From a virus (lineage: Duplodnaviria > Heunggongvirae > Uroviricota > Caudoviricetes), in the IMG/VR virus record IMGVR_UViG_2695420653_000007, positions 1-16,682 of that record: a stretch of 16,682 nucleotides of DNA. One strand, given 5' to 3'. Positions within the stretch are counted from its first letter, which is position 1. The number at the start of each line of letters is the position of its first letter. The translations under genes were made by a program, and so were the position numbers. The notes under the pieces were generated by a model. It saw only the letters and a list, made by a program, of their open reading frames with translations, was not told the DNA's origin and ran no database searches. Below, one piece after another: positions 1-13,591 of this stretch.

Positions 1-1248
1 ATGGCACTGAATATTCCATTCAGAAATGCGTACTATCGTTTTGCATCCAGTTACTCATTTCTCTTTTTTATTTCCTGGTCGCTGTGGTGGTCGTTATACG
101 CTATTTGGCTGAAAGGACATCTAGGGTTGACAGGGACGGAATTAGGTACACTTTATTCGGTCAACCAGTTTACCAGCATTCTATTTATGATGTTCTACGG
201 CATCGTTCAGGATAAACTCGGTCTGAAGAAACCGCTCATCTGGTGTATGAGTTTCATCCTGGTCTTGACCGGACCGTTTATGATTTACGTTTATGAACCG
301 TTACTGCAAAGCAATTTTTCTGTAGGTCTAATTCTGGGGGCGCTCTTTTTTGGCCTGGGGTATCTGGCGGGATGCGGTTTGCTTGACAGCTTCACCGAAA
401 AAATGGCGCGAAATTTTCATTTCGAATATGGAACAGCGCGCGCCTGGGGATCTTTTGGCTATGCTATTGGCGCGTTCTTTGCCGGCATATTTTTTAGTAT
501 CAGTCCCCATATCAACTTCTGGTTGGTCTCGCTATTTGGCGCTGTATTTATGATGATCAACATGTGTTTTAAAGATAAGGATCACCAGTGCGTAGCGGCG
601 GATGCGGGAGGGGTAAAAAAAGAGGATTTTATCGCAGTTTTCAAGGATCGAAACTTCTGGGTTTTCGTCATATTTATTGTGGGGACGTGGTCTTTCTATA
701 ACATTTTTGATCAACAACTTTTTCCTGTCTTTTATGCAGGTTTATTCGAATCACACGATGTAGGAACGCGCCTGTATGGTTATCTCAACTCATTCCAGGT
801 GGTACTCGAAGCGCTATGCATGGCGATTATTCCTTTCTTTGTGAATCGGGTAGGGCCAAAAAATGCATTACTTATCGGTGTTGTGATTATGGCGTTGCGT
901 ATCCTTTCCTGCGCGCTGTTCGTTAACCCCTGGATTATTTCATTAGTGAAGCTGTTACATGCTATTGAGGTTCCACTTTGTGTCATATCCGTCTTCAAAT
1001 ACAGCGTGGCAAATTTTGATAAGCGCCTGTCGTCGACGATCTTTCTGATTGGTTTTCAAATTGCCAGTTCGCTTGGGATTGTGCTGCTTTCAACGCCGAC
1101 TGGGATACTCTTTGACCACGCAGGCTACCAGACAGTTTTCTTCGCAATTTCGGGTATTGTCTGCCTGATGTTGCTATTTGGCATTTTCTTCCTGAGTAAA
1201 AAACGCGAGCAAATAGTTATGGAAACGCCTGTACCTTCAGCAATATAG
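1..1248 (+). CDS. MFS transporter, LacY-like oligosaccharide:H+ symporter family (415 aa); probable chromosomal flank of the prophage
   Basis: Full-length ORF in track; strongly hydrophobic multi-helix protein; from memory it aligns along its length with E. coli LacY (DKLGLKKPLIW vs LacY DKLGLRKYLLW; YVYEPLLQSN vs FIFGPLLQYN). Window begins exactly at its ATG, so upstream signals are not visible. Confidence 0.8.
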   Translation: MALNIPFRNAYYRFASSYSFLFFISWSLWWSLYAIWLKGHLGLTGTELGTLYSVNQFTSILFMMFYGIVQDKLGLKKPLIWCMSFILVLTGPFMIYVYEPLLQSNFSVGLILGALFFGLGYLAGCGLLDSFTEKMARNFHFEYGTARAWGSFGYAIGAFFAGIFFSISPHINFWLVSLFGAVFMMINMCFKDKDHQCVAADAGGVKKEDFIAVFKDRNFWVFVIFIVGTWSFYNIFDQQLFPVFYAGLFESHDVGTRLYGYLNSFQVVLEALCMAIIPFFVNRVGPKNALLIGVVIMALRILSCALFVNPWIISLVKLLHAIEVPLCVISVFKYSVANFDKRLSSTIFLIGFQIASSLGIVLLSTPTGILFDHAGYQTVFFAISGIVCLMLLFGIFFLSKKREQIVMETPVPSAI

Positions 1249-1386
1249 ACGTAAACTTTTCCGGTTGTTGTCGATATCTCCCTATCCCTCAACCGGAAAA
1301 TAATAATACTAAAGTGCTTAGCCCTGCTAATAATCACCTAATCCAAACGCCTCATTCATGTTCTGGTACAGTCGCTCAAATGTACT

Positions 1387-1563
1387 TCAGATGCGCGGTT
1401 CGCTGATTTCCAAGACATTGTCGTCATTCAGCGACCTGTCCCGTGTATCACGGTCCTGCGAATTCATCAAGGAATGCATTGCGGAGTGAAGTATCGAGTC
1501 ACGCCATATTTCGCTATCAGGATTCTGTGTGATGGTTACATCGCCCGGCCCAGGGCTGTTTAG
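1387..1563 (-). pseudogene. Possible degraded C-terminal remnant of a tyrosine integrase (no start codon, about 58 codons)
   Basis: Minus-strand frame reads ...DSILHSAMHSLMNSQDRDTRDRSLNDDNVLEISEPRI*, which loosely resembles my recollection of the lambda Int C-terminus (HLLGHKSDTMASQYRDDRGREWDKIEIK), with the catalytic Tyr position replaced by Asp. It sits immediately downstream of xis on the same strand, where int is expected. Weak similarity; could be chance. Confidence 0.25.
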
Positions 1564-1776
1564 TCATCAGCGCTTTCTGACAGTGCTGAGATTTCAACCT
1601 GTTGCAGTAAAAATGAGTAGATATAAGGCAAGTGTGCTGCCAAACCTATCTTTTACGGGGTGAAGGTAGATTTCGTTTGAAGGGTATCTGGTGTCCCCTG
1701 CAGACATCTACTTGAAGCGGCAGGGGATTGATTGGAATGGTGTTTTTTAGATGTGAAAAAAATTTTACCCGCTATT

Positions 1777-1977
1777 TTACCCATTGGCGCGGCTTAAGAG
1801 CTTATTTTTGAATTCACAATGGTCACGATATAACCATCTTGCTCGCCCGTGGATAACTTTGGCTTTAGGCAGGTCCCCGGACTTAATCCGGTCATAGATG
1901 AAGGTTTTACCGAAGCCAGTATCGGCCATGATGAATTTCAAATCAACCAGTGAATCAGGCTGTAGTTCGTGTTGCAT
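1777..1977 (-). CDS. xis: Excisionase-like small DNA-binding protein (AlpA/Xis HTH family), 66 aa
   Basis: Track ORF; short basic protein with pattern LVDLKFIMADTGFGKTFIYDRIKSGDLPKAKVIHGRARWLYRDHCEF typical of AlpA/Xis-type HTH excisionases; GGAG about 10 nt upstream of ATG; last gene of the leftward operon, the usual xis position. Confidence 0.7.
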   Translation of the reverse strand: MQHELQPDSLVDLKFIMADTGFGKTFIYDRIKSGDLPKAKVIHGRARWLYRDHCEFKNKLLSRANG

Positions 1978-2022
1978 GAGTGCTATCTCCGAATAGGGAA
2001 TCGAACCTGCAAATCAGGCAAT

Positions 2023-2043
2023 AAAAAAACCGCATTGATGCGG
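2023..2043 (-). terminator. Intrinsic terminator on minus strand (5-bp GC stem CCGCA/TGCGG, 4-nt loop, T7 run)
   Basis: Minus strand reads CCGCA-TCAA-TGCGG-TTTTTTT; lies between the 114-aa gene and xis. Confidence 0.55.
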
Positions 2044-2102
2044 CGATGGTAGGTCTGGATATCTTGAGAAATGAACTGGCCTCATCGAGTGTGAGGCTGT
2101 GG

Positions 2103-2447
2103 TTAGTCCTTGCGTAGCTCGCTAATTCTTCTGTAAGTCTCTGGTGCTTTGTTTCCGTGTATCTTCATTTCAGACTTCAACAGAGCAACGAGTGAATCCC
2201 ATTCGTTGAGGATTCCTTTGAATGCCGGAACGCGCTTTGCAACCTTGTCGAATGAATCTCTGATTTCTGGAATCTGCTCAACAAGTGCAACGCATCGCCG
2301 GAAATCGGCTGCGTCATGTGGAGCGCCGAAGTGATGACCATAGATATTCTTTTTCAGTCCACATGCGATTGAGGCAAGAGTTGCGCTACTGATGCCGACA
2401 TCGCCAGTCGATTGCCATTTCAAAACCTTCATAGCCAAATCTGACAT
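2103..2447 (-). CDS. Hypothetical prophage protein (114 aa)
   Basis: Track ORF; GGAG 8 nt upstream of ATG; flanked by hairpin terminators on both sides. No family recognised. Confidence 0.6.
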   Translation of the reverse strand: MSDLAMKVLKWQSTGDVGISSATLASIACGLKKNIYGHHFGAPHDAADFRRCVALVEQIPEIRDSFDKVAKRVPAFKGILNEWDSLVALLKSEMKIHGNKAPETYRRISELRKD

Positions 2448-2460
2448 TTCTTGTCTCCAT

Positions 2461-2485
2461 AAAACAAAACTCGCCGTAGCGAGTT
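2461..2485 (-). terminator. Intrinsic terminator A on minus strand (stem AACTCGC/GCGAGTT, loop of 4, then TTTTGTTTT), abutting the RBS of the 114-aa gene
   Basis: Perfect 7-bp inverted repeat followed on the minus strand by a T-rich run; directly seen. Confidence 0.5.
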
Positions 2486-2488
2486 CAG

Positions 2489-2516
2489 ATAAAAGAAAAC
2501 CCGCACTCGGCGGGTT
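2489..2516 (-). terminator. Intrinsic terminator B on minus strand (stem AACCCGC/GCGGGTT, loop of 5, then TTTTCTTTTAT), in tandem with terminator A
   Basis: Perfect 7-bp GC-rich inverted repeat followed on the minus strand by a T-rich tract. Confidence 0.5.
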
Positions 2517-2795
2517 CGCATTCGTTCAAATTGCGTTTACTTCTTGGCGTTCTGTTCATCCATATCGATATACCATGGGTTGCTTCCCTTGGGCATGTTT
2601 AACGACTGCTCGCGATAGTATCTGATGCGCTCCATGAAATACTCGCGTGAGTGCTCAGGTTGCTCTCATGATACCTGCTCAGTGATAACAGGTATGTTAA
2701 GGCGCTCTCTGTACTCCATGCCTGATGCTGCAAGGTCAACGTTTACCTTGTTCTGTTTTTCTTTCGATTTCTCGGCGATGTTATGCCTGACATTG

Positions 2796-3038
2796 TCAAC
2801 CCGCCTCCTTCTGAACATAACGGTTATAAATCAGTCCCTGAGGGCCATAAGGAAGCGGGATGTGCAACTCCTCTGGTTCAGAAACTATCCATTCTCCGGC
2901 CATCTCCGCTGGAGAGGTAATGATAAGTTGTTTGCTAATAAAAGGACCACTCCTCTCAACAACAAGCTTACCATCTTCATTAATAAAAGCTTGGATGTCA
3001 GGTGTGCTTCCACACTTGGTGATGCAGCGTTTGAACAT
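2796..3038 (-). CDS. Hypothetical small protein (about 80 aa, MFKRCITKCGSTPD...), moron-like unit with its own promoter
   Basis: Track ORF 2796..3080, but the upstream ATGs overlap the putative promoter; ATG at 3038 is preceded by a G-rich SD (GGGGGGA). AT-rich region with extended -10 immediately upstream. Confidence 0.5.
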   Translation of the reverse strand: MFKRCITKCGSTPDIQAFINEDGKLVVERSGPFISKQLIITSPAEMAGEWIVSEPEELHIPLPYGPQGLIYNRYVQKEAG

Positions 3039-3068
3039 TTTGTGTCCCCCCATTTTATGTACTGGGTA

Positions 3069-3077
3069 ATTATAACA
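3069..3077 (-). promoter_or_regulatory. Putative extended -10 promoter element (TGtTATAAT on minus strand) in AT-rich intergenic region 3039..3164
   Basis: Minus strand reads TGTTATAAT (plus attataaca at 3069..3077), a perfect TATAAT with upstream TG; -35 not convincing. Confidence 0.35.
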
Positions 3078-3164
3078 CATTGAAATATAGTAATATTTGA
3101 CGTAGATTTCTTTTGATCTATAAGCGATTTTTTAATGCTTTTAAGTTATAAATACTTGTTTTCA

Positions 3165-4091
3165 TCACCCATCTTGCTGCGGTGCTACTATTGAAAAGTG
3201 CTCACACCCTTTATCCCAAATAGTTTTGATAGTTGTCCAACTGACTGGAACCTTGATTTCGATTCTCCCGCTACAGTCACAAGTTTCGCAATCATCATCA
3301 CCAAAGCATTCCGGGCAGCTTATAAACGTAGTTTCTGAAAATTCACCGGATAGCACACCCTTAGCGCCGTTCTCGGCTGTTAGTCTCTTCGGCACCATGA
3401 CCCAACCATCCGGAATTACCGGAGAGTTGCCCGATAGTGCATTCTGCTCCAGTGATGCTTTTACAAACCACGCTGCCTGAACTATAACGCCATGAATCCA
3501 GCGCAAATCAGCATCGCGATCTTTCTTTTTCATCTTTTCGCCACTTAAGGCCTTGCTTATGTGGCTGCGTACCAGGTCTTCATGTAATTCCTTCGCCTCC
3601 TCAATGGTGAAACCACCAGGCAGAAGAGCCGGAGTTACCGGAGAGCTGGTTGACGCTTCCGGGATTTCCCGAAAATTATTGGTTGACGAATTCTTGCTTT
3701 CCCGAAAGTTTCCGGACTGAAGCATGGCGGTGCGGCAGGCGTTCCATATTTCGGCAGCAATATCGCGCTCGCTATCGGTTAATTTGTACGTGGAAACATA
3801 GCCAGAGAGCATTTCTACGTTTTCCGGAGTTGCTTCTTCCGGCACTACCGGCGCTGGCGGGGCGGCAAATAGATATCCGCCAAAGTCAGGAAGCTCTCCA
3901 ATGGCCTGTACGAACTTTTGTTTGCCTACGTCAACTCCTAATGGGTAATGAGCTATAATCTTTGCCACCGGCTCTGCTTCCAGCGATACCAGTGCAATCC
4001 GTGCCACTTCCATTTGTTCGCCACGAGTAAGTCCGTTATCAAGCGGATTTTTAATGAATAATTTGATACGTTCTTTGGTCATAGCGCTCAT
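3165..4091 (-). CDS. Hypothetical prophage early-region protein (308 aa) with C-terminal Cys cluster (CPECFGDDDCETCDCSG)
   Basis: Track ORF; start ATG lies 1 nt after the stop of the upstream Ea22-like gene. No confident family assignment. Confidence 0.65.
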   Translation of the reverse strand: MSAMTKERIKLFIKNPLDNGLTRGEQMEVARIALVSLEAEPVAKIIAHYPLGVDVGKQKFVQAIGELPDFGGYLFAAPPAPVVPEEATPENVEMLSGYVSTYKLTDSERDIAAEIWNACRTAMLQSGNFRESKNSSTNNFREIPEASTSSPVTPALLPGGFTIEEAKELHEDLVRSHISKALSGEKMKKKDRDADLRWIHGVIVQAAWFVKASLEQNALSGNSPVIPDGWVMVPKRLTAENGAKGVLSGEFSETTFISCPECFGDDDCETCDCSGRIEIKVPVSWTTIKTIWDKGCEHFSIVAPQQDG

Positions 4092-8383: not shown

Positions 8384-9352
8384 TTAGTAGGTTATTTTTG
8401 TTGCGAATACTTCGCCTTTTACGATGGCTGTTATGATATTTTTAGCAACATCTTCTGATGCGCCAACCTTGATAAGGTCAGCAAGTATTTTGTTATTTAC
8501 TTCTTTCCGGTGAGCTTTATCCTTTGCTCTACGCTCTTCTTCGTCCTTGATTCTTTTTTCTTCTGCTATTCTGGCTTGCTCTTTTGCTTCAGCATCGCGA
8601 CGGATTTGTTCAGCCTCCTCCTGTGCTTTTCGGCGTTCTGCTTCAATTGCCGCCTGCTTTTCTCTTTCAGCTCGTTCTGCTGCCTCTTTTGCTTCGCGCT
8701 GTGCTCGTTGCTCGGCTTCAATGCGTTCACGCTCTGCACGTTCCGCTGCGGCCTTAGCTTCTGCTTCTCGCCTTGCTGCTGCTTCAATTTCGGCTTTTGC
8801 CTTTGCTTCGGCTTCAGCTCTGGCTTTCGCTTCAGCTTCTCTTTTTAAGCGTTCTTCATGCTCTCGCTTTTCCTGCTCCGCTTTGAGTCTTGCCTCTTCT
8901 CTTTGGCGGTCAAATTCGCGATCCATCAAAATAGCTATTTCATGGTCAGACTCAATTTGCTTTGCGAGAGCTTCAGCTGCTGCCTTAGCTTCTTCTTCGG
9001 CTTTAATCCGCGCCTGTTCTTCCTCATAATCAGTAAGAGGCTGGCGCGCCTTGGCTTTCAGCTCATCAAGGCGATCACGCACTGTCTTGCGGTTAGCATC
9101 AATTAGCTTTGGAATTTCCTTCAGTTCAGCAACAAGGTCTTTGCCAAGACCATCGAGATATGTTTTCGTCTGCGAAACTTTATACGCCAGAGAAGCGATC
9201 TCCTTTCTGCCCTTTGCCGTTGTGATATCAGGCACAAAGGACATAACTTCACGTTCAACCTTTTGAAGGATTTCTTCAATCTGGTCGGCAGACTGAAATA
9301 CAGTCATTGCATTTGCTTTTTCAATAACAACTAAATCTGTTACTTCACTCAT
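8384..9352 (-). CDS. Hypothetical phage protein (322 aa) with long Ala/Glu/Lys/Arg-rich charged coiled-coil (TolA-like low complexity)
   Basis: Track ORF trimmed to ATG at 9352 (MSEVTDLVVIEK...) preceded by GGAGG; about 150 residues of EAKAKAEAEA-type repeats encoded by GCTTC/GCTGC-rich DNA. Confidence 0.7.
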   Translation of the reverse strand: MSEVTDLVVIEKANAMTVFQSADQIEEILQKVEREVMSFVPDITTAKGRKEIASLAYKVSQTKTYLDGLGKDLVAELKEIPKLIDANRKTVRDRLDELKAKARQPLTDYEEEQARIKAEEEAKAAAEALAKQIESDHEIAILMDREFDRQREEARLKAEQEKREHEERLKREAEAKARAEAEAKAKAEIEAAARREAEAKAAAERAERERIEAEQRAQREAKEAAERAEREKQAAIEAERRKAQEEAEQIRRDAEAKEQARIAEEKRIKDEEERRAKDKAHRKEVNNKILADLIKVGASEDVAKNIITAIVKGEVFATKITY

Positions 9353-9363
9353 ATATCCTCCAT

Positions 9364-9393
9364 AAAAAAAATTGCCCTCACATTGGAGGGCAA
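9364..9393 (-). terminator. Strong intrinsic terminator on minus strand (8-bp stem TTGCCCTC/GAGGGCAA, 6-nt loop, T8 run), tL-like
   Basis: Perfect 8-bp inverted repeat followed on the minus strand by eight T; the T-run abuts the RBS of the 322-aa gene. Confidence 0.65.
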
Positions 9394-9486
9394 AGAAGAT
9401 TTCCAATAATCAGAACAAGTCGGCTCCTGTTTAGTTACGAGCGACATTGCTCCGTGTATTCACTCGTTGGAATGAATACACAGTGC

Positions 9487-10023: not shown

Positions 10024-10446
10024 TTACTTAACCAATGATGCTGCATATTCAATTAGGAATAACTTAGGTGCAAGCCAAATCTTCAACCATTCGAAATTGA
10101 AGGCAATAATTAAAACACCCATAATTGAGCCAAATATAGGAACAAATACAGTGCATATATCGTAATAAACCGAAGATATAAAATGTCCATCATTTGGACG
10201 TCCATCGAAAGACGTCCATCTCTCGCCATTATTTCTTGCCGTTCTTGCAAAACTAGGAAGTTTAATTGCTGCAATTAAAAGCAACAATCCAGCCACTTGG
10301 AAAAGTGCGCTATGGACAAAACTCCATATTAGCAACTGATGAACAACATCAGGAATCTGTGCCTGGCTAAATGAAACAGCCGCATCTATTCCATTGCTGG
10401 CTTTTTGCAGTAGTTCTACGAGAATCTTGTTGGCTTGTTCTTCCAT
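10024..10446 (-). CDS. Hypothetical membrane protein (140 aa, about 2 TM segments) immediately downstream of N; SieB-position superinfection-exclusion candidate
   Basis: Track ORF; two long hydrophobic stretches; its SD (GAGGTG) overlaps the N stop codon; position matches sieB in lambda/P22 but no sequence identity established. Confidence 0.6.
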   Translation of the reverse strand: MEEQANKILVELLQKASNGIDAAVSFSQAQIPDVVHQLLIWSFVHSALFQVAGLLLLIAAIKLPSFARTARNNGERWTSFDGRPNDGHFISSVYYDICTVFVPIFGSIMGVLIIAFNFEWLKIWLAPKLFLIEYAASLVK

Positions 10447-10454
10447 ATATCACC

Positions 10455-10754
10455 TCAAATAAGTGGTTTGCTGCCTAATTTCATTTTCTGGCGACCAACA
10501 CAAGTCACCCCCATTTCACTGCGTGGCTTGCGGTAGTAAATATGATTCTGTTTACGCTCGACTTCTTCTGCCTTCTTGCAGCGAAGGCTTCCGAGTGATG
10601 CTGCTTTATCTGCTCTGACGCAACCAGAGAGCTTTAGCGCAATTTTTCGCGCCAGTCGCTGTTCTTGCATTGCCTGCTCACGTTGAGCCTGTCTGCGTGC
10701 TCTGCGGCGATTTCTGGCGTTATCGTCAGCCAGATATGTAATGACTACTGCCAT
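10455..10754 (-). CDS. N: Antitermination protein N (99 aa)
   Basis: Arginine-rich motif near N-terminus (NARNRRRARRQAQREQ); C-terminus YYRKPRSEMGVTCVGRQKMKLGSKPLI closely resembles lambda N C-terminus (WYSKPGERGITCSGRQKIKGKSIPLI, from memory); GGAGG 6 nt upstream; nutL in leader. Confidence 0.85.
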   Translation of the reverse strand: MAVVITYLADDNARNRRRARRQAQREQAMQEQRLARKIALKLSGCVRADKAASLGSLRCKKAEEVERKQNHIYYRKPRSEMGVTCVGRQKMKLGSKPLI

Positions 10755-10948: not shown

Positions 10949-11035
10949 AGAATACTGTAGGTATTTTATTGTGTAAATACCCAAGGTATTTATTTTTGGT
11001 GAAATAATGATAAGCAAATGAATACAAAGGATATT
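10949..11035 (-). promoter_or_regulatory. pL/OL region: operators AATACTGTAGGTATT (10951..10965), AATACCCAAGGTATT (10976..10990), AATACAAAGGATATT (11021..11035); putative pL -10 TATTCT and -35 TTTACA on minus strand
   Basis: Three 15-bp sites with inverted half-sites AATAC/GTATT, the same consensus as at OR; -10 overlaps OL1 and -35 overlaps OL2 with a 17-bp spacer, as at lambda pL. Confidence 0.55.
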
Positions 11036-11121
11036 TATTTTTTCGGTGTCTGCTTGTTCAGTGCTTTTTATGCGGGATATGTGAAGTGGATCCCGATAGC
11101 TATTGCTGCCGGGATTATGGG

Positions 11122-11490
11122 TTAGTCAGCGAAGGTTAAGACGAGAATTACCTTAATGATGTCTGCTACAACAGACACGGCCATAGATAAACCAAAGACA
11201 ATCCAAGCCATAGAGATGTCTTCACTACCATCGTATAGAGTTCCGTAATCACTGGTGTAAGGCGTAAATGTCGCGCCTTGATACAATAGGTATAAGCTTG
11301 ATCCATAGAGGATAAATGCAGATATCCCTTGTATTGCTATGATCACCAGAATCATGAAACGAGCTGATCTATGCGCCCAAGCCTGGCTTATTTTTTCTGA
11401 TAGAGATTTCGCAATAAAAGCATGCGCTAAGCCGTAAATTGTCGAGATTGCCAACATCCCAAAAAAGCTTGCTATAGCGGTTCCAACCAT
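11122..11490 (-). CDS. Small integral membrane protein (about 122 aa, 3 predicted TM helices) co-transcribed with cI; rex-position accessory gene
   Basis: Track ORF 11122..11511 trimmed to ATG at 11490 (AAGGGG 7 nt upstream), which lies 18 nt downstream of the cI stop; three long hydrophobic segments; no family recognised. Confidence 0.65.
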   Translation of the reverse strand: MVGTAIASFFGMLAISTIYGLAHAFIAKSLSEKISQAWAHRSARFMILVIIAIQGISAFILYGSSLYLLYQGATFTPYTSDYGTLYDGSEDISMAWIVFGLSMAVSVVADIIKVILVLTFAD

Positions 11491-11507
11491 AAGCGCCCCT
11501 TGCGTGA

Positions 11508-12224
11508 TCAAACCAGCCTTAGTTTTGTCTCAATTGCAACGCCTATAATCTTGCAGTTTCCATTGATTGGCACGAGAGGCCATGCAGGGTTAAGTCCCTT
11601 GAGGTATTTATTTCCGCCGTCGATTATCAGCTTCTTGAATGTTGCTTCGTTAGAGTCAGAAAGTTTTGCTATGACCAAGCTGCCGTTGATCGCCTCCCTT
11701 CCGGTATCGAAAAGAACGAATGTTCCCTCTGGAATGCTTAACCCAACCGGTGCCGTCATTGAATCACCTTCCACTTTAAGCCAAAACGCATTACCTTGAA
11801 TATGCGCGTCAGACTCAAGCCAAACATCTATGTCTTTAATGGTGTATGGTTCGCATGCTTCACACCACGAGCCAGCCTGGATACTGCTTAACACCGGATA
11901 CCTCTTTCCTGCTCTGTATTCCCCTGCATACCTTACGTTGGCATCGCTCTTAAGGCTTTCTGCCTGTTCTGCAACCTTGGCAGCAATTGACTGGCTAAAA
12001 TCAGCAATTGAGACTTGCAACAGTCGTGCAAAACCAGATGCAACCTCAACGTTTAGCGCGTTTCTGCCATTAAGATAATGCCCTACCGCTCCTTGGGTGA
12101 TACCAAGTTCATCAGCAATTGAGTATTGGGTTATTCCCAACTCTTTCTTTTTTGACTCATACAAAGCCTTAAGCCGCTTAGCGTCTTCGAGCTGTTCTGT
12201 CGTCAGTGATTTCTTATTTTCCAT
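11508..12224 (-). CDS. cI: CI repressor (238 aa; N-terminal HTH, C-terminal LexA-like S24 autopeptidase domain)
   Basis: N-terminus LTTEQLEDAKRLKALYESKKKELGITQ parallels lambda cI ([27 protein letters not shown]); C-terminal FWLKVEGDSMTAP and FKKL motifs (catalytic Ser/Lys); no SD before ATG, consistent with a leaderless pRM transcript. Confidence 0.9.
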   Translation of the reverse strand: MENKKSLTTEQLEDAKRLKALYESKKKELGITQYSIADELGITQGAVGHYLNGRNALNVEVASGFARLLQVSIADFSQSIAAKVAEQAESLKSDANVRYAGEYRAGKRYPVLSSIQAGSWCEACEPYTIKDIDVWLESDAHIQGNAFWLKVEGDSMTAPVGLSIPEGTFVLFDTGREAINGSLVIAKLSDSNEATFKKLIIDGGNKYLKGLNPAWPLVPINGNCKIIGVAIETKLRLV

Positions 12225-12230
12225 AGCTTA

Positions 12231-12301
12231 ATTCTAATAGCTAAGGTACTTAAACTAAAAATACCCTGAGTATTGATTGCTTTGAATACCTGTAGTATTC
12301 T
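12231..12301. promoter_or_regulatory. OR/pRM/pR genetic switch: OR3 AATAGCTAAGGTACT (12236..12250), OR2 AATACCCTGAGTATT (12260..12274), OR1 AATACCTGTAGTATT (12285..12299); pR -35 TTGATT (12273..12278) and -10 TATTCT (12296..12301); pRM -10 TAGAAT on minus (12231..12236)
   Basis: Three evenly spaced (24-25 bp) 15-bp sites sharing the AATACnnnnnGTATT consensus with OL; promoter hexamers overlap the operators as in lambda; pRM -10 is 6 nt from the cI ATG. Confidence 0.6.
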
Positions 12302-12330: not shown

Positions 12331-12525
12331 ATGATTCGAATGACACTTGCCGATTACGCCAAAATCCATGGACAGGCTAAAGCAGCCAGTGACTTTGGTG
12401 TAATCCAGTGCGCTATCAGCAAGGCCATTCTGGCAGGCCGTAACATTATGGTTACGGTAAAGCCTGATGGCAGTGTGATTGGAGAGGAAGTTCGTCCTTT
12501 CCCAAGCAACAAGAAAAACAAATAG
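12331..12525 (+). CDS. cro: Cro repressor (64 aa)
   Basis: [64 protein letters not shown] parallels lambda Cro (...[57 protein letters not shown]); GGAG 7 nt before ATG at 12331. Confidence 0.85.
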
Positions 12526-12946: not shown

Positions 12947-13591
12947 ATGACATACGAAAATGACAAATTCCAGGTTCTGAAGAGCATGAAGGTGCCAGAT
13001 GATTTTAAATCAAATGGCTTTGTTTATGTGCTTTCGAATGAGTGCATGCCGGGAATTTATAAGATTGGGATGACTAAGCATTCACCAGAAGTTAGGGCTA
13101 AAGAAATTTCAGCCTCTACTGGCGTTCCTAAGCCATTTAAGGTGATAGCAGCCTTTCATTCAAATAATCCCGCATCAGATGAAAAACTTATTCATAAAGC
13201 CTTTGCAAAAGAGAGGCTTAGTGATAATCGAGAGTTTTTCAAGCTTGAAGATAATGATCTTTATGAATCTCTAAATGAAATAAGGGCGCTGGTTGGCCCT
13301 GAAAGAAATGGCGAGACGGCAGAATACGCAATTTACGACTCATTCATTTCTTTTCGCCATGAAAATGAGCTTGATCTTAATGAGGAGCTTATAGAGCAAG
13401 GTCTGGGTAGTGTAGTTGGTCATCTTCCTGCGATGAAAAATTTCCTTATTCGCGCCGGAATTGATTACGCGAAGCAACTGATAAGCAAATATAACTCATC
13501 GATAGTTATTAATACAGATGGCAGTGTGGTGATGGTTAAGTCTCTTGAAGCCCAATGCTTTGATGCGGAGGTTGGAAATGAGCCTTGCTGA
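12947..13591 (+). CDS. T5orf172 (GIY-YIG-like, MUG113-type) domain protein (214 aa), AT-rich insertion between cII and O
   Basis: N-terminal region GFVYVLSNECMPGIYKIGMTKHSPEVRAKEI ... EKLIHKAFAKERLSDNREFFKLE fits the remembered T5orf172 signature (G-VY-V, KIG-T, R--E, H--F, REFF); AGGAG 7 nt upstream; visibly more AT-rich than cII and O. Confidence 0.65.
   Translation: MTYENDKFQVLKSMKVPDDFKSNGFVYVLSNECMPGIYKIGMTKHSPEVRAKEISASTGVPKPFKVIAAFHSNNPASDEKLIHKAFAKERLSDNREFFKLEDNDLYESLNEIRALVGPERNGETAEYAIYDSFISFRHENELDLNEELIEQGLGSVVGHLPAMKNFLIRAGIDYAKQLISKYNSSIVINTDGSVVMVKSLEAQCFDAEVGNEPC

What the first reader, a model, noticed from the sequence alone, without database searches (positions are those of the whole stretch)
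11036..11511. Uncharacterised 3-TM membrane protein co-transcribed with cI at the rex locus position
A 122-aa protein with three hydrophobic helices starts 18 nt after the cI stop, its SD lying within the last cI codons. It would therefore be expressed from pRM in the lysogen, exactly where lambda carries rexA-rexB and other lambdoids carry exclusion or abortive-infection genes. It is a single small membrane protein, not a RexA/RexB pair and not the large BstA type, and I recognise no family. That makes it a candidate for an undescribed lysogen-expressed exclusion or defence effector.
Basis: partly seen in the sequence, partly recalled or inferred. Interest (0 to 1): 0.72.

Follow-up and report, generated by a model that had tools for sequence, protein, structure and literature searches.

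The report
HkaS: orphan membrane protein beside cI
The small three-helix membrane protein gene just after the prophage repressor is real and conserved, but it is the long-annotated, never-studied hkaS gene of coliphage HK620, and its likely role in excluding other phages is untested.

Summary
A 122-codon ORF (window 11122-11490, minus strand) starts 17 nt after the cI stop codon. It encodes a confidently modelled protein with three transmembrane helices.

It is not an unrecognised ORF. It is hkaS of phage HK620 (GenBank 2001, product "unknown"; 97.5% identical) and phrog_6534 (function unknown).

The gene is real. It is intact in 80/80 related viral contigs, while the antisense 35-aa ORF overlapping its 3' end is frameshifted in 21/80. 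Its length is conserved down to 52% identity. It shares the synonymous divergence of cI but changes 3-5 times faster at the protein level.

The family is a true orphan. A profile search of 1.84 billion proteins found only itself, and no fold match or defence-database hit turned up. It is unrelated to RexB, SieA, HK97 gp15 and 434 Hex.

It always travels inside the OL-hkaS-cI-OR-cro immunity cassette. This is a known slot for accessory genes (rexAB, hex, stk, bstA).

The function is inferred only. The most likely role is superinfection exclusion at the inner membrane in the lysogen. Rivals are abortive infection, control of repressor or lysogen stability, and a benefit to the host. The finding is a reasonable experimental candidate, of moderate interest.

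The parts
11122..11490 (-). hkaS coding sequence: 122 aa with three transmembrane helices. Predicted topology is N-terminus out and C-terminus in, with a basic cytoplasmic loop (residues 25-45) and an acidic, Tyr/Gly-rich periplasmic loop (residues 71-92).
   Evidence: ORF and translation. 97.5% identical to HK620 HkaS. Full-length match to phrog_6534, E 2.9e-79. AF2 mean pLDDT 89.5. Charge distribution. Intact in 80/80 loci.
11491..11507 (-). 17-nt cI-hkaS spacer carrying the hkaS Shine-Dalgarno sequence AAGGGG (11501-11496), 5 nt before the ATG.
   Evidence: Read from the sequence. The spacer is 17-20 nt, with AAGGA/AAAGGA in the divergent lineages.
11508..12224 (-). cI repressor (238 aa, HTH_3 + Peptidase_S24), the first gene of the immunity operon.
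   Evidence: Pfam E 5e-24 and 8e-10. 99.6% identical to HK620 cI.
12231..12236 (-). Candidate pRM -10 hexamer TAGAAT, 6 nt upstream of the cI ATG. This implies a leaderless or nearly leaderless cI mRNA, as in lambda. Read by eye and inferred.
   Evidence: Sequence. The consensus scan did not report it because the -35 is weak. Its position relative to OR2/OR3 mirrors lambda (established knowledge).
12236..12299 (.). OR3 (12236-12250), OR2 (12260-12274) and OR1 (12285-12299), with operator consensus AATACnnnnnGTATT.
   Evidence: Pattern search. HK620 annotation.
11090..11115 (-). Stem-loop (7+3 bp) starting 7 nt after the hkaS stop codon, with no U-tract. Each divergent lineage has a hairpin at this place with a different sequence. 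It is a candidate 3'-end or stability element of the cI-hkaS transcript.
   Evidence: RNA fold. Hairpins read in loci L004, L008 and L010. No canonical intrinsic terminator was found.
11021..11035 (.). Third left operator (AATACAAAGGATATT, 1 mismatch), 45 bp from OL2. It has the same spacing in all four lineages. cI bound here would sit at the distal end of the cI-hkaS transcript.
   Evidence: The HK620 record labels this place 'tIMM'.
10949..10990 (-). OL1 (10951-10965), OL2 (10976-10990) and pL (TTTACA-17-TATTCT). This is the left boundary of the immunity cassette.
12331..12525 (+). cro, the right boundary of the block that always travels with hkaS.
   Evidence: Pfam Cro E 3.6e-26. Present at >=95% identity in 79/80 loci.

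Best explanation
What is shown, or read from the sequence: this is hkaS, the single accessory gene of the HK620/mEpX2-type immunity cassette. It is the second and last cistron after cI on the same strand, with its own ribosome-binding site and no terminator or promoter signal in between. It encodes a 122-aa integral inner-membrane protein with three helices. Predicted topology is N-terminus periplasmic, a basic amphipathic loop in the cytoplasm, a roughly 20-residue acidic Tyr/Gly-rich beta-hairpin loop in the periplasm, and C-terminus cytoplasmic. It is dispensable for the phage, under purifying selection, evolves faster than cI, and has no detectable relatives.

What is inferred: it is made in the lysogen from the pRM transcript. 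The most likely role is superinfection exclusion at the cytoplasmic membrane. In this model HkaS sits in the inner membrane and hinders genome entry by incoming phages, either by occluding a host inner-membrane component that they use or by binding their ejection or tape-measure conduit. This is how P22 SieA, HK97 gp15, T4 Imm and lactococcal Sie2009 work, without HkaS being related to any of them.

Confidence in the identity and anatomy is about 0.95. The confidence given below is for the exclusion-by-entry-block mechanism.
For: Identity:
- 97.5-99% identical to HkaS of HK620, HK630, mEpX2 and HK140.
- Full-length match to phrog_6534.

Real gene:
- 80/80 intact copies, against 59/80 for the overlapping antisense ORF.
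- 122 aa conserved down to 52% identity in Salmonella, Enterobacter, Klebsiella aerogenes and Hafnia.
- pS equals that of cI (0.46-0.81), while pN is 3.4-4.6 times higher.

Operon:
- Spacer of 17-20 nt with a conserved Shine-Dalgarno sequence in all lineages.
- No terminator-like or promoter-like site on the gene's strand between cI and hkaS.
- A hairpin and a conserved third operator lie just downstream.

Membrane protein:
- AF2 mean pLDDT 89.5 with three long helices.
- Positive-inside charge pattern.

Accessory gene:
- The closest cI relative (Serratia OS31, 71% identical) has an empty slot.
- Phage BHUENT3 has other cargo in the slot.
- The viable phage HF4s carries a 1-nt deletion in hkaS.

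Precedent:
- pRM-operon cargo excludes other phages in lambda (rexAB), 434 (hex) and 933W (stk) (PMC3564112), and in BTP1 (bstA) (PMC7067206).
- Small prophage inner-membrane proteins that act alone are, where studied, DNA-entry blockers: SieA, HK97 gp15, Tuc2009 and TP-J34 (PMC10461980).
- A repressor-adjacent transmembrane protein in E. coli LF82 prophage Perceval is transcribed 81-fold above the prophage background in the lysogen (PMC9928086).
- The periplasmic loop is the least conserved segment (mean pairwise identity 0.52, 4/22 invariant). The cytoplasmic loop and C-terminal tail are the most conserved. This fits a variable outward-facing surface.
Against: - No experiment or transcript data exist for hkaS. 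The literature searches returned nothing on its function.
- It has no sequence or fold similarity to any known exclusion protein.
- hkaS travels with the immunity cassette in phages of different virion types: P22-like HK620 and HF4s, lambda-like mEpX2, HK630 and HK140, and Stx2c phages. It is therefore not matched to one injection apparatus, unlike sieA, which sits next to the ejection-protein genes.
- Conserved polar residues inside the helices (Q54, D110, K113) and a conserved cytoplasmic motif (KISQAWxHRxARF) fit a channel or a cytoplasmic partner equally well.
- The difference in conservation between segments is modest (0.52 against 0.67).
Confidence: 0.3

Rival explanations
1. Abortive-infection effector. 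HkaS is a latent membrane-permeabilising protein, like RexB or a holin. It is held inactive in the lysogen and opens on a signal from an infecting phage. This collapses the membrane potential and kills the cell before progeny are made.
For: - It occupies the slot of lambda rexAB and 933W stk, both abortive systems (PMC3564112).
- Its size and predicted topology (3 transmembrane helices, N-out/C-in, 122 aa) resemble class I holins such as lambda S105 (own knowledge; topology).
- The helices contain invariant polar or charged residues: Q54, D110 and K113.
Against: - There is no sensor partner: hkaS is the only ORF between cI and OL.
- hhalign probability against RexB is 0.7%.
- No holin family appeared in Pfam or PHROGs at E<=1.
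- The protein ends in TFAD just after helix 3, so it lacks the basic cytoplasmic tail typical of holins.
Confidence: 0.15
2. Modulator of the lysis-lysogeny switch. HkaS acts on cI itself or on prophage induction. Possible routes are tethering or shielding the repressor from RecA-stimulated cleavage, or acting on a membrane protease such as FtsH. The effect would be to tune lysogen stability rather than to fight other phages.
For: - 434 Hex sits directly after a cI that is 52% identical to this one. Hex stabilises lysogens by preventing RecA-mediated repressor autocleavage (PMC3564112).
- Lambda RexB is a membrane protein that interacts with CI in two-hybrid assays (10.1101/2021.04.19.439022).
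- hkaS has stayed linked to one cI family through saturating synonymous divergence.
- Its most conserved parts face the cytoplasm.
Against: - HkaS is unrelated to Hex (probability 0.1%) and to RexB.
- The linkage is also explained simply by position: the gene is trapped between OL and OR, which must match cI.
- The OS31 repressor (71% identical) does without it.
- HkaS evolves 3-5 times faster than its supposed partner cI.
Confidence: 0.15
3. Lysogenic-conversion factor that benefits the host and has nothing to do with phages. Examples would be envelope stress, ion or small-molecule tolerance, or colonisation, in the manner of lambda bor/lom or the membrane morons seen in prophage transcriptomes.
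For: - It is a constitutively placed, lysogen-expressed membrane protein.
- It is carried by 146 of 5426 complete E. coli genomes and on at least 1000 contigs.
- Many lysogen-expressed morons remain of unknown function (PMC9928086, PMC7067206).
Against: - The family is confined to one immunity cassette and has no chromosomal or plasmid relatives among 1.84 billion proteins. This is unusual for a generally useful host function.
- Its fast protein evolution fits conflict better than housekeeping.
Confidence: 0.2
4. Toxin-antitoxin-like pair formed with the convergent 35-aa hydrophobic ORF (11018-11125, + strand) or with an antisense RNA from that strand.
For: - The small ORF overlaps the hkaS stop codon by 4 nt and is hydrophobic.
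- It is annotated as a CDS in phage HF4s.
- A TGnAATAAT extended -10-like element precedes it (read by eye).
Against: - The small ORF is frameshifted in 21/80 near-identical loci.
- It is absent or truncated to 3-9 codons in the Salmonella (L004) and L008 lineages. The Hafnia-type loci carry only an unrelated 31-41-aa ORF.
- No promoter was found by the scan, and there is no Rfam hit.
Confidence: 0.03

Closest known systems
HkaS of coliphage HK620 (AAK28867; AF335538, Clark et al. 2001) = phrog_6534
   Same: It is the same gene: 97.5% identical over 120 of 122 residues, with the same place between cI and OL. The profile match is full length.
   Different: Nothing of substance differs. The family has never been characterised: 'unknown' in GenBank, 'hypothetical protein' in RefSeq and every other source read.
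Lambda RexB (with RexA), the cargo of the lambda pRM operon
   Same: Same slot, same strand, an inner-membrane protein, expected to be co-transcribed with cI.
   Different: No homology (hhalign probability 0.7%). HkaS has 3 helices rather than 4 and no RexA-like partner. RexB has its own promoter, pLIT; none was detected here.
Phage 434 Hex (heterologous exclusion and repressor protection), PMC3564112
   Same: The gene directly follows a related cI (52% identity) and was shown to lie on the pRM transcript. It is the best-studied neighbour of this immunity type.
   Different: The protein is unrelated (probability 0.1%). Hex has one N-terminal hydrophobic segment and an otherwise polar body, so it is not a polytopic membrane protein.
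P22 SieA, HK97 gp15, T4 Imm and lactococcal Sie2009: small prophage or phage inner-membrane proteins that block DNA entry (PMC10461980)
   Same: Small, act alone, located in the inner membrane, expressed in the lysogen. This is the functional class I think HkaS most likely belongs to.
   Different: No sequence relationship (SieA probability 0.3%, gp15 0.2%). They sit at different genomic locations: sieA lies next to the ejection-protein gene 16, and gp15 lies among the tail genes. hkaS is not tied to a virion type. T4 Imm and Sie2009 were not compared directly.
Repressor-adjacent pair LF82_153/LF82_152 of E. coli LF82 prophage Perceval (PMC9928086)
   Same: A membrane protein encoded downstream of the repressor on the same strand. 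RNA-seq shows it transcribed in the lysogen at 81 times the prophage background.
   Different: Unrelated (probability 0.2%). It is 168 aa, preceded by a 340-aa partner, and its function is also unknown.

Membership tests
HkaS / phrog_6534 | Full-length sequence match to the family profile and to HK620 HkaS | tested here: met
   phrog_6534 E 2.9e-79, residues 1-122 against profile 1-122/122. 97.5% identical to AAK28867.
HkaS / phrog_6534 | Position immediately downstream of an HK620-type S24 repressor and upstream of OL | tested here: met
   Window. All 9 divergent loci. 79/80 IMG/VR loci, the remaining one being cut by the contig end.
Immunity-operon (pRM) accessory gene / moron | Same strand as cI, between cI and OL, with no terminator or promoter in between | tested here: met
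   17-nt spacer. The scan finds no minus-strand terminator or promoter between 11490 and 12224.
Immunity-operon (pRM) accessory gene / moron | Dispensable for the phage life cycle; the slot is variable among related phages | tested here: met
   Empty slot in Serratia phage OS31. Other cargo in BHUENT3, 434, Sf101 and lambda. Frameshifted copy in the viable phage HF4s.
Immunity-operon (pRM) accessory gene / moron | Transcribed in the lysogen together with cI | not testable with these tools
   No RNA data for this cassette were found. Shown only for analogues: 434 hex (PMC3564112), BTP1 bstA (PMC7067206) and LF82_152 (PMC9928086).
Lambda RexAB | Sequence homology to RexB | tested here: not met
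   hhalign probability 0.7%. No hit in the profile search of 1.84 billion proteins apart from its own family.
Lambda RexAB | Two-gene system with a RexA-like partner | tested here: not met
   hkaS is the only ORF on the cI strand between cI and OL.
Lambda RexAB | Four transmembrane segments with both termini cytoplasmic (10.1101/2021.04.19.439022) | tested here: not met
   Three helices. The charge pattern gives N-out/C-in.
P22 SieA-type exclusion proteins | Sequence homology | tested here: not met
   hhalign probability 0.3%.
P22 SieA-type exclusion proteins | Inner-membrane location | tested here: inconclusive
   Predicted only; no fractionation data.
P22 SieA-type exclusion proteins | Blocks DNA injection by superinfecting phage | not testable with these tools
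   Requires plating, potassium-efflux and DNA-entry assays.
HK97 gp15 | Sequence homology | tested here: not met
   hhalign probability 0.2%.
434 Hex | Sequence homology | tested here: not met
   hhalign probability 0.1%.
Known or candidate defence systems in PADLOC-DB 2.0 (BstA not checked by name) | Match to any defence-protein model | tested here: not met
   0 families at E<=1.
Class I holins (lambda S105-like) | Match to a holin family, and a basic cytoplasmic C-terminal tail | tested here: not met
   No holin family in Pfam or PHROGs. The C-terminus is ...LVLTFAD with no tail. Only the three-helix N-out/C-in topology is shared.

The most novel reading that the evidence does not exclude
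HkaS founds a new, sequence-orphan family of single-protein, lysogen-expressed anti-phage effectors. It would be a 122-aa three-helix inner-membrane protein that on its own excludes or aborts heteroimmune phages, hard-wired into one repressor cassette of enterobacterial lambdoid and P22-like phages.
Probability: 0.4. Interest if true: 0.55.

Novelty: new member of a known kind. Interest (0 to 1): 0.35.

Why it matters
The cI-to-OL slot of lambdoid prophages has repeatedly yielded exclusion or defence genes: rexAB, hex, stk and bstA. hkaS is the cargo of a common immunity type, present in about 2.7% of complete E. coli genomes and in the model phages HK620 and mEpX2, yet it has never been tested.

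It is small, acts without a partner gene and has no relatives. A phenotype would therefore define a new minimal membrane-based exclusion protein and give an easy genetic handle, through escape mutants, on how phages cross the inner membrane. If instead it tunes repressor stability, it would extend the Hex/RexB theme that immunity-operon cargo feeds back on the switch.

It does not overturn any current view, and the concept is well established.

Tried and rejected
1. Remote homology. These searches gave nothing beyond the gene's own family or noise:
- Pfam gave only sub-threshold hits: Cation_ATPase_C at 19 bits against a cut-off of 27, and TssN at 13 bits.
- NCBIfam and PADLOC gave no hits.
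- The word-indexed search of 5.8 billion proteins found 12 clusters, all of its own family.
- The full HMMER profile search of 1.84 billion representatives found 2 hits, both its own family.
- PDB sequences gave 0 hits.

2. Fold searches with a confident model:
- BFVD best E 0.17.
- PDB Foldseek best E 0.33.
- The afdb50 library was unavailable.

3. Direct profile comparisons with RexB, Hex, SieA, HK97 gp15 and LF82_152 all gave probabilities below 1%.

4. Cleavable signal peptide in helix 1. The A-H-A motif at residues 21-23 is not conserved in other lineages, and there is no basic n-region. Rejected.

5. Antisense 35-aa ORF as a partner gene or type I toxin. It is not conserved and is often frameshifted. 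Rejected.

6. Two operator-like sites inside hkaS (11280-11294 and 11321-11335, 2 mismatches each). They are not conserved at the nucleotide level in the other lineages, so they are chance matches.

7. Recombinational origin for the faster divergence of hkaS. pS is the same in cI and hkaS, so the two genes share a history. Rejected.

8. Equal length (340 aa) of window ORF 8384-9406 and LF82_153. The proteins are unrelated, so this is coincidence.

9. Literature searches for hkaS, mEpX2, WP_000233125 and HK620 lysogen RNA-seq found no functional data.
Full report
**1. What is in the sequence**

The window holds the early region of an E. coli lambdoid prophage. On the minus strand, cI occupies 11508-12224. 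It is 238 aa with HTH_3 and Peptidase_S24 domains. Its TGA stop is followed by the 17-nt spacer TCACGCAAGGGGCGCTT and then an ATG at 11490. This ATG opens a 122-codon frame that ends at 11122. The finding's left coordinate (11036) overshoots the stop codon by 86 nt.

The operators fit the consensus AATACnnnnnGTATT:
- OL1: 10951-10965
- OL2: 10976-10990
- a third left site: 11021-11035
- OR3: 12236-12250
- OR2: 12260-12274
- OR1: 12285-12299

N lies at 10455-10754 and cro at 12331-12525. The gene therefore sits exactly where lambda has rexA-rexB.

**2. Identity**

Megablast and tblastn against phage records show that the whole OL-to-OR block is 98.7-99.1% identical to the immunity region of HK620, HK630, HK140, mEpX2 and HF4s, of two phi-series podoviruses, and of two Stx2c phages.

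In the HK620 record (AF335538) the ORF is named hkaS with product "unknown". It matches phrog_6534 (function unknown) end to end at E 2.9e-79. RefSeq and every other source name it "hypothetical protein". So the ORF is not new. Only its function is unknown, and the literature searches found nothing on it.

**3. It is a real gene under selection**

- In 80 IMG/VR loci (35 nucleotide alleles, 21 protein variants), all 80 copies are intact 122-codon ORFs placed 17-19 nt after cI.
- As an internal control, the 35-codon ORF on the opposite strand that overlaps the hkaS stop (11018-11125) is frameshifted in 21 of the same 80 loci. It is also absent from the divergent lineages.
- Homologues of exactly 122 aa exist at 83%, 61%, 55% and 52% identity in Hafnia, Salmonella/Enterobacter and Klebsiella aerogenes prophages.
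- In every one of these loci the gene follows an S24 repressor by 17-20 nt, has a conserved Shine-Dalgarno sequence, and precedes OL and N.
- Synonymous divergence is the same in cI and hkaS: pS is 0.46-0.50 against the Hafnia-type locus and 0.78-0.81 (saturated) against the others. The two genes therefore share a history.
- Non-synonymous divergence is 3.4-4.6 times higher in hkaS: pN is 0.089-0.32 against 0.022-0.079 in cI, giving pN/pS of 0.19-0.41.
- The gene is thus constrained, but much less so than the repressor.

**4. It is an orphan**

- An exhaustive HMMER profile search of 1.84 billion representative proteins returned only the family's own 50% cluster and one 44-aa fragment.
- Pfam, NCBIfam, PADLOC and PDB sequences gave nothing meaningful.
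- Direct profile comparisons with lambda RexB, 434 Hex, P22 SieA, HK97 gp15 and the repressor-adjacent membrane protein of LF82 prophage Perceval all gave probabilities below 1%.

**5. The protein**

By the positive-inside rule:
- the loop at residues 25-45 carries 4-6 Lys/Arg and is cytoplasmic;
- the loop at residues 71-92 is acidic, rich in Tyr and Gly, and periplasmic;
- the topology is therefore N-terminus out and C-terminus in.

The invariant residues cluster in three places:
- the cytoplasmic motif KISQAW-H-R/K-x-ARF;
- the YLLY..TF stretch at the outer end of helix 2;
- Q54, D110 and K113 inside the helices, together with the C-terminal ILVLTFAD.

The periplasmic loop is the most variable segment (mean pairwise identity 0.52, 4/22 invariant). 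The cytoplasmic loop has mean identity 0.67 with 10/21 invariant.

**6. The cassette and the slot**

Across the 80 loci, the block OL - hkaS - cI - OR - cro is constant (79-80/80 at >=95% identity). The flanks are mosaic: this N allele occurs in 44/80, the ORF after N in 2/80, and the T5orf172 gene after cII in 5/80. Some loci are short, so these flank counts are lower bounds. The strict linkage of hkaS to this cI family may be no more than a consequence of being trapped between operators that must match the repressor.

The slot itself varies among related repressors:

| Phage or prophage | Cargo after the repressor | Source |
|---|---|---|
| Serratia phage OS31 (cI 71% identical) | none | |
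| Enterobacter phage BHUENT3 (65%) | two other ORFs | |
| 434 and Sf101 (about 52%) | hex | |
| lambda | rexAB | |
| E. coli LF82 prophage Perceval | a 340-aa and a 168-aa membrane pair | |

Phage HF4s, a viable isolate, carries a 1-nt deletion in an A6 run of hkaS. This may be a real mutation or a sequencing error. Either way, hkaS behaves as a dispensable accessory gene.

**7. Expression (inferred)**

No terminator-like or promoter-like element lies between cI and hkaS on their strand. A TAGAAT -10 hexamer lies 6 nt before the cI ATG, with OR3 in the promoter spacer and OR2 next to the weak -35. This is the lambda pRM arrangement, read by eye. A 7+3-bp hairpin without a U-tract begins 7 nt after the hkaS stop. 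Each divergent lineage has a different hairpin at the same place.

The third left operator lies 86 nt downstream of the hkaS stop. It is conserved at a fixed 45-bp distance from OL2 in all four lineages. This is the place the HK620 record labels tIMM.

Co-transcription from pRM has been shown for the analogous genes hex (PMC3564112) and bstA (PMC7067206). The repressor-adjacent membrane protein of LF82 Perceval is transcribed at 81 times the prophage background in the lysogen (PMC9928086). None of this is direct evidence for hkaS.

**8. Mechanism**

Nothing here tests function, so what follows is inference.

The published precedents for this slot are exclusion or abortive-infection genes. Where small prophage inner-membrane proteins that act alone have been studied, they block DNA entry (SieA, HK97 gp15, Tuc2009, TP-J34; PMC10461980). 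The variable periplasmic loop and fast protein evolution fit an outward-facing conflict surface. I therefore put superinfection exclusion by blocking genome entry first, at about 0.3.

Three points count against it. hkaS is not tied to any virion type. It has conserved intramembrane polar residues. Its best-conserved face is cytoplasmic.

The rivals are:
- a RexB-like or holin-like abortive effector (0.15);
- a Hex/RexB-like modulator of repressor stability (0.15);
- a host-benefit conversion factor (0.2);
- a toxin-antitoxin pairing with the antisense ORF (0.03), largely excluded.

**9. Verdict**

HkaS is a new and still uncharacterised member of a known kind, namely immunity-operon accessory genes of lambdoid prophages. 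It is notable for being a strict sequence orphan and for sitting in two laboratory phages where the decisive experiments are easy. Interest is moderate.

Noticed in passing
window 11018-11125 (+): A 35-aa hydrophobic ORF convergent with hkaS, overlapping its stop codon by 4 nt. It is annotated as a CDS in phage HF4s (HF4s_0039). It is frameshifted in 21/80 near-identical loci and truncated or absent in the other lineages, so it is almost certainly not a gene.
   Followed up: yes
window 11021-11035: An operator-like palindrome (AATACAAAGGATATT) 45 bp from OL2, conserved at the same spacing in the E. coli, Salmonella, L008 and Hafnia-type lineages. The HK620 GenBank record places OL3 at the equivalent of 10997-11013, which does not fit the consensus, and calls the equivalent of 11010-11040, which contains this site, the terminator tIMM. 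This site is probably the real third left operator. With cI bound, it could act as a roadblock at the end of the cI-hkaS transcript.
   Followed up: partly
window 12947-13591 (+): A 214-aa protein with a T5orf172/MUG113 domain, inserted between cII and the replication gene O. It matches the PADLOC candidate PDC-S57 (E 4e-29) and the T5orf172 domain of PD-Lambda-1. It is present in only 5 of 80 related loci, so it is a possible defence or homing-nuclease-like moron.
   Followed up: partly
window 1-3200: The window starts with a LacY-family oligosaccharide MFS transporter (1-1248, E 2.6e-193). In matching E. coli genomes this is followed by genes annotated as DNA polymerase III theta and TorI (excisionase-like). 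No integrase was identified in the window, though not every ORF was searched. The left prophage boundary was not mapped.
   Followed up: partly
window 10024-10446 (-) and 8384-9406 (-): Two pL-operon ORFs of unknown function: 140 aa (phrog_3054) directly after N, and 340 aa (phrog_1376/21365). The 140-aa gene occurs in only 2 of 80 loci that share the immunity cassette, so it is another variable cargo position.
   Followed up: partly
L002 (phage HF4s) 1863-2096, equivalent to window ~11385-11391: HF4s has a 1-nt deletion in the A6 run of hkaS (GAAAAAA to GAAAAA), which splits the ORF. This is either a natural null allele or a homopolymer sequencing error.
   Followed up: yes
L017 (Enterobacter phage BHUENT3) 2170-2886: This phage has a repressor with the same C-terminal domain but a different DNA-binding domain. 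Its slot holds two other unknown ORFs: a 127-aa protein with two CxxC pairs (phrog_4293), and a 109-aa coiled-coil protein with a C-terminal membrane anchor (phrog_6136). Neither matches PADLOC.
   Followed up: partly
L100 (E. coli LF82, prophage Perceval) 1133-2683: A repressor-adjacent pair, LF82_153 (340 aa) and LF82_152 (168-aa membrane protein). Published RNA-seq (PMC9928086) shows the membrane protein at 81 times the prophage background in the lysogen. It is unrelated to HkaS and uncharacterised, so it is another candidate in the same slot.
   Followed up: partly
window 11280-11294 and 11321-11335: Two 2-mismatch matches to the operator consensus inside hkaS (about 0.16 expected by chance in 369 nt). 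They fall on conserved peptide motifs but are not conserved at the nucleotide level in the other lineages, so they are chance matches.
   Followed up: yes
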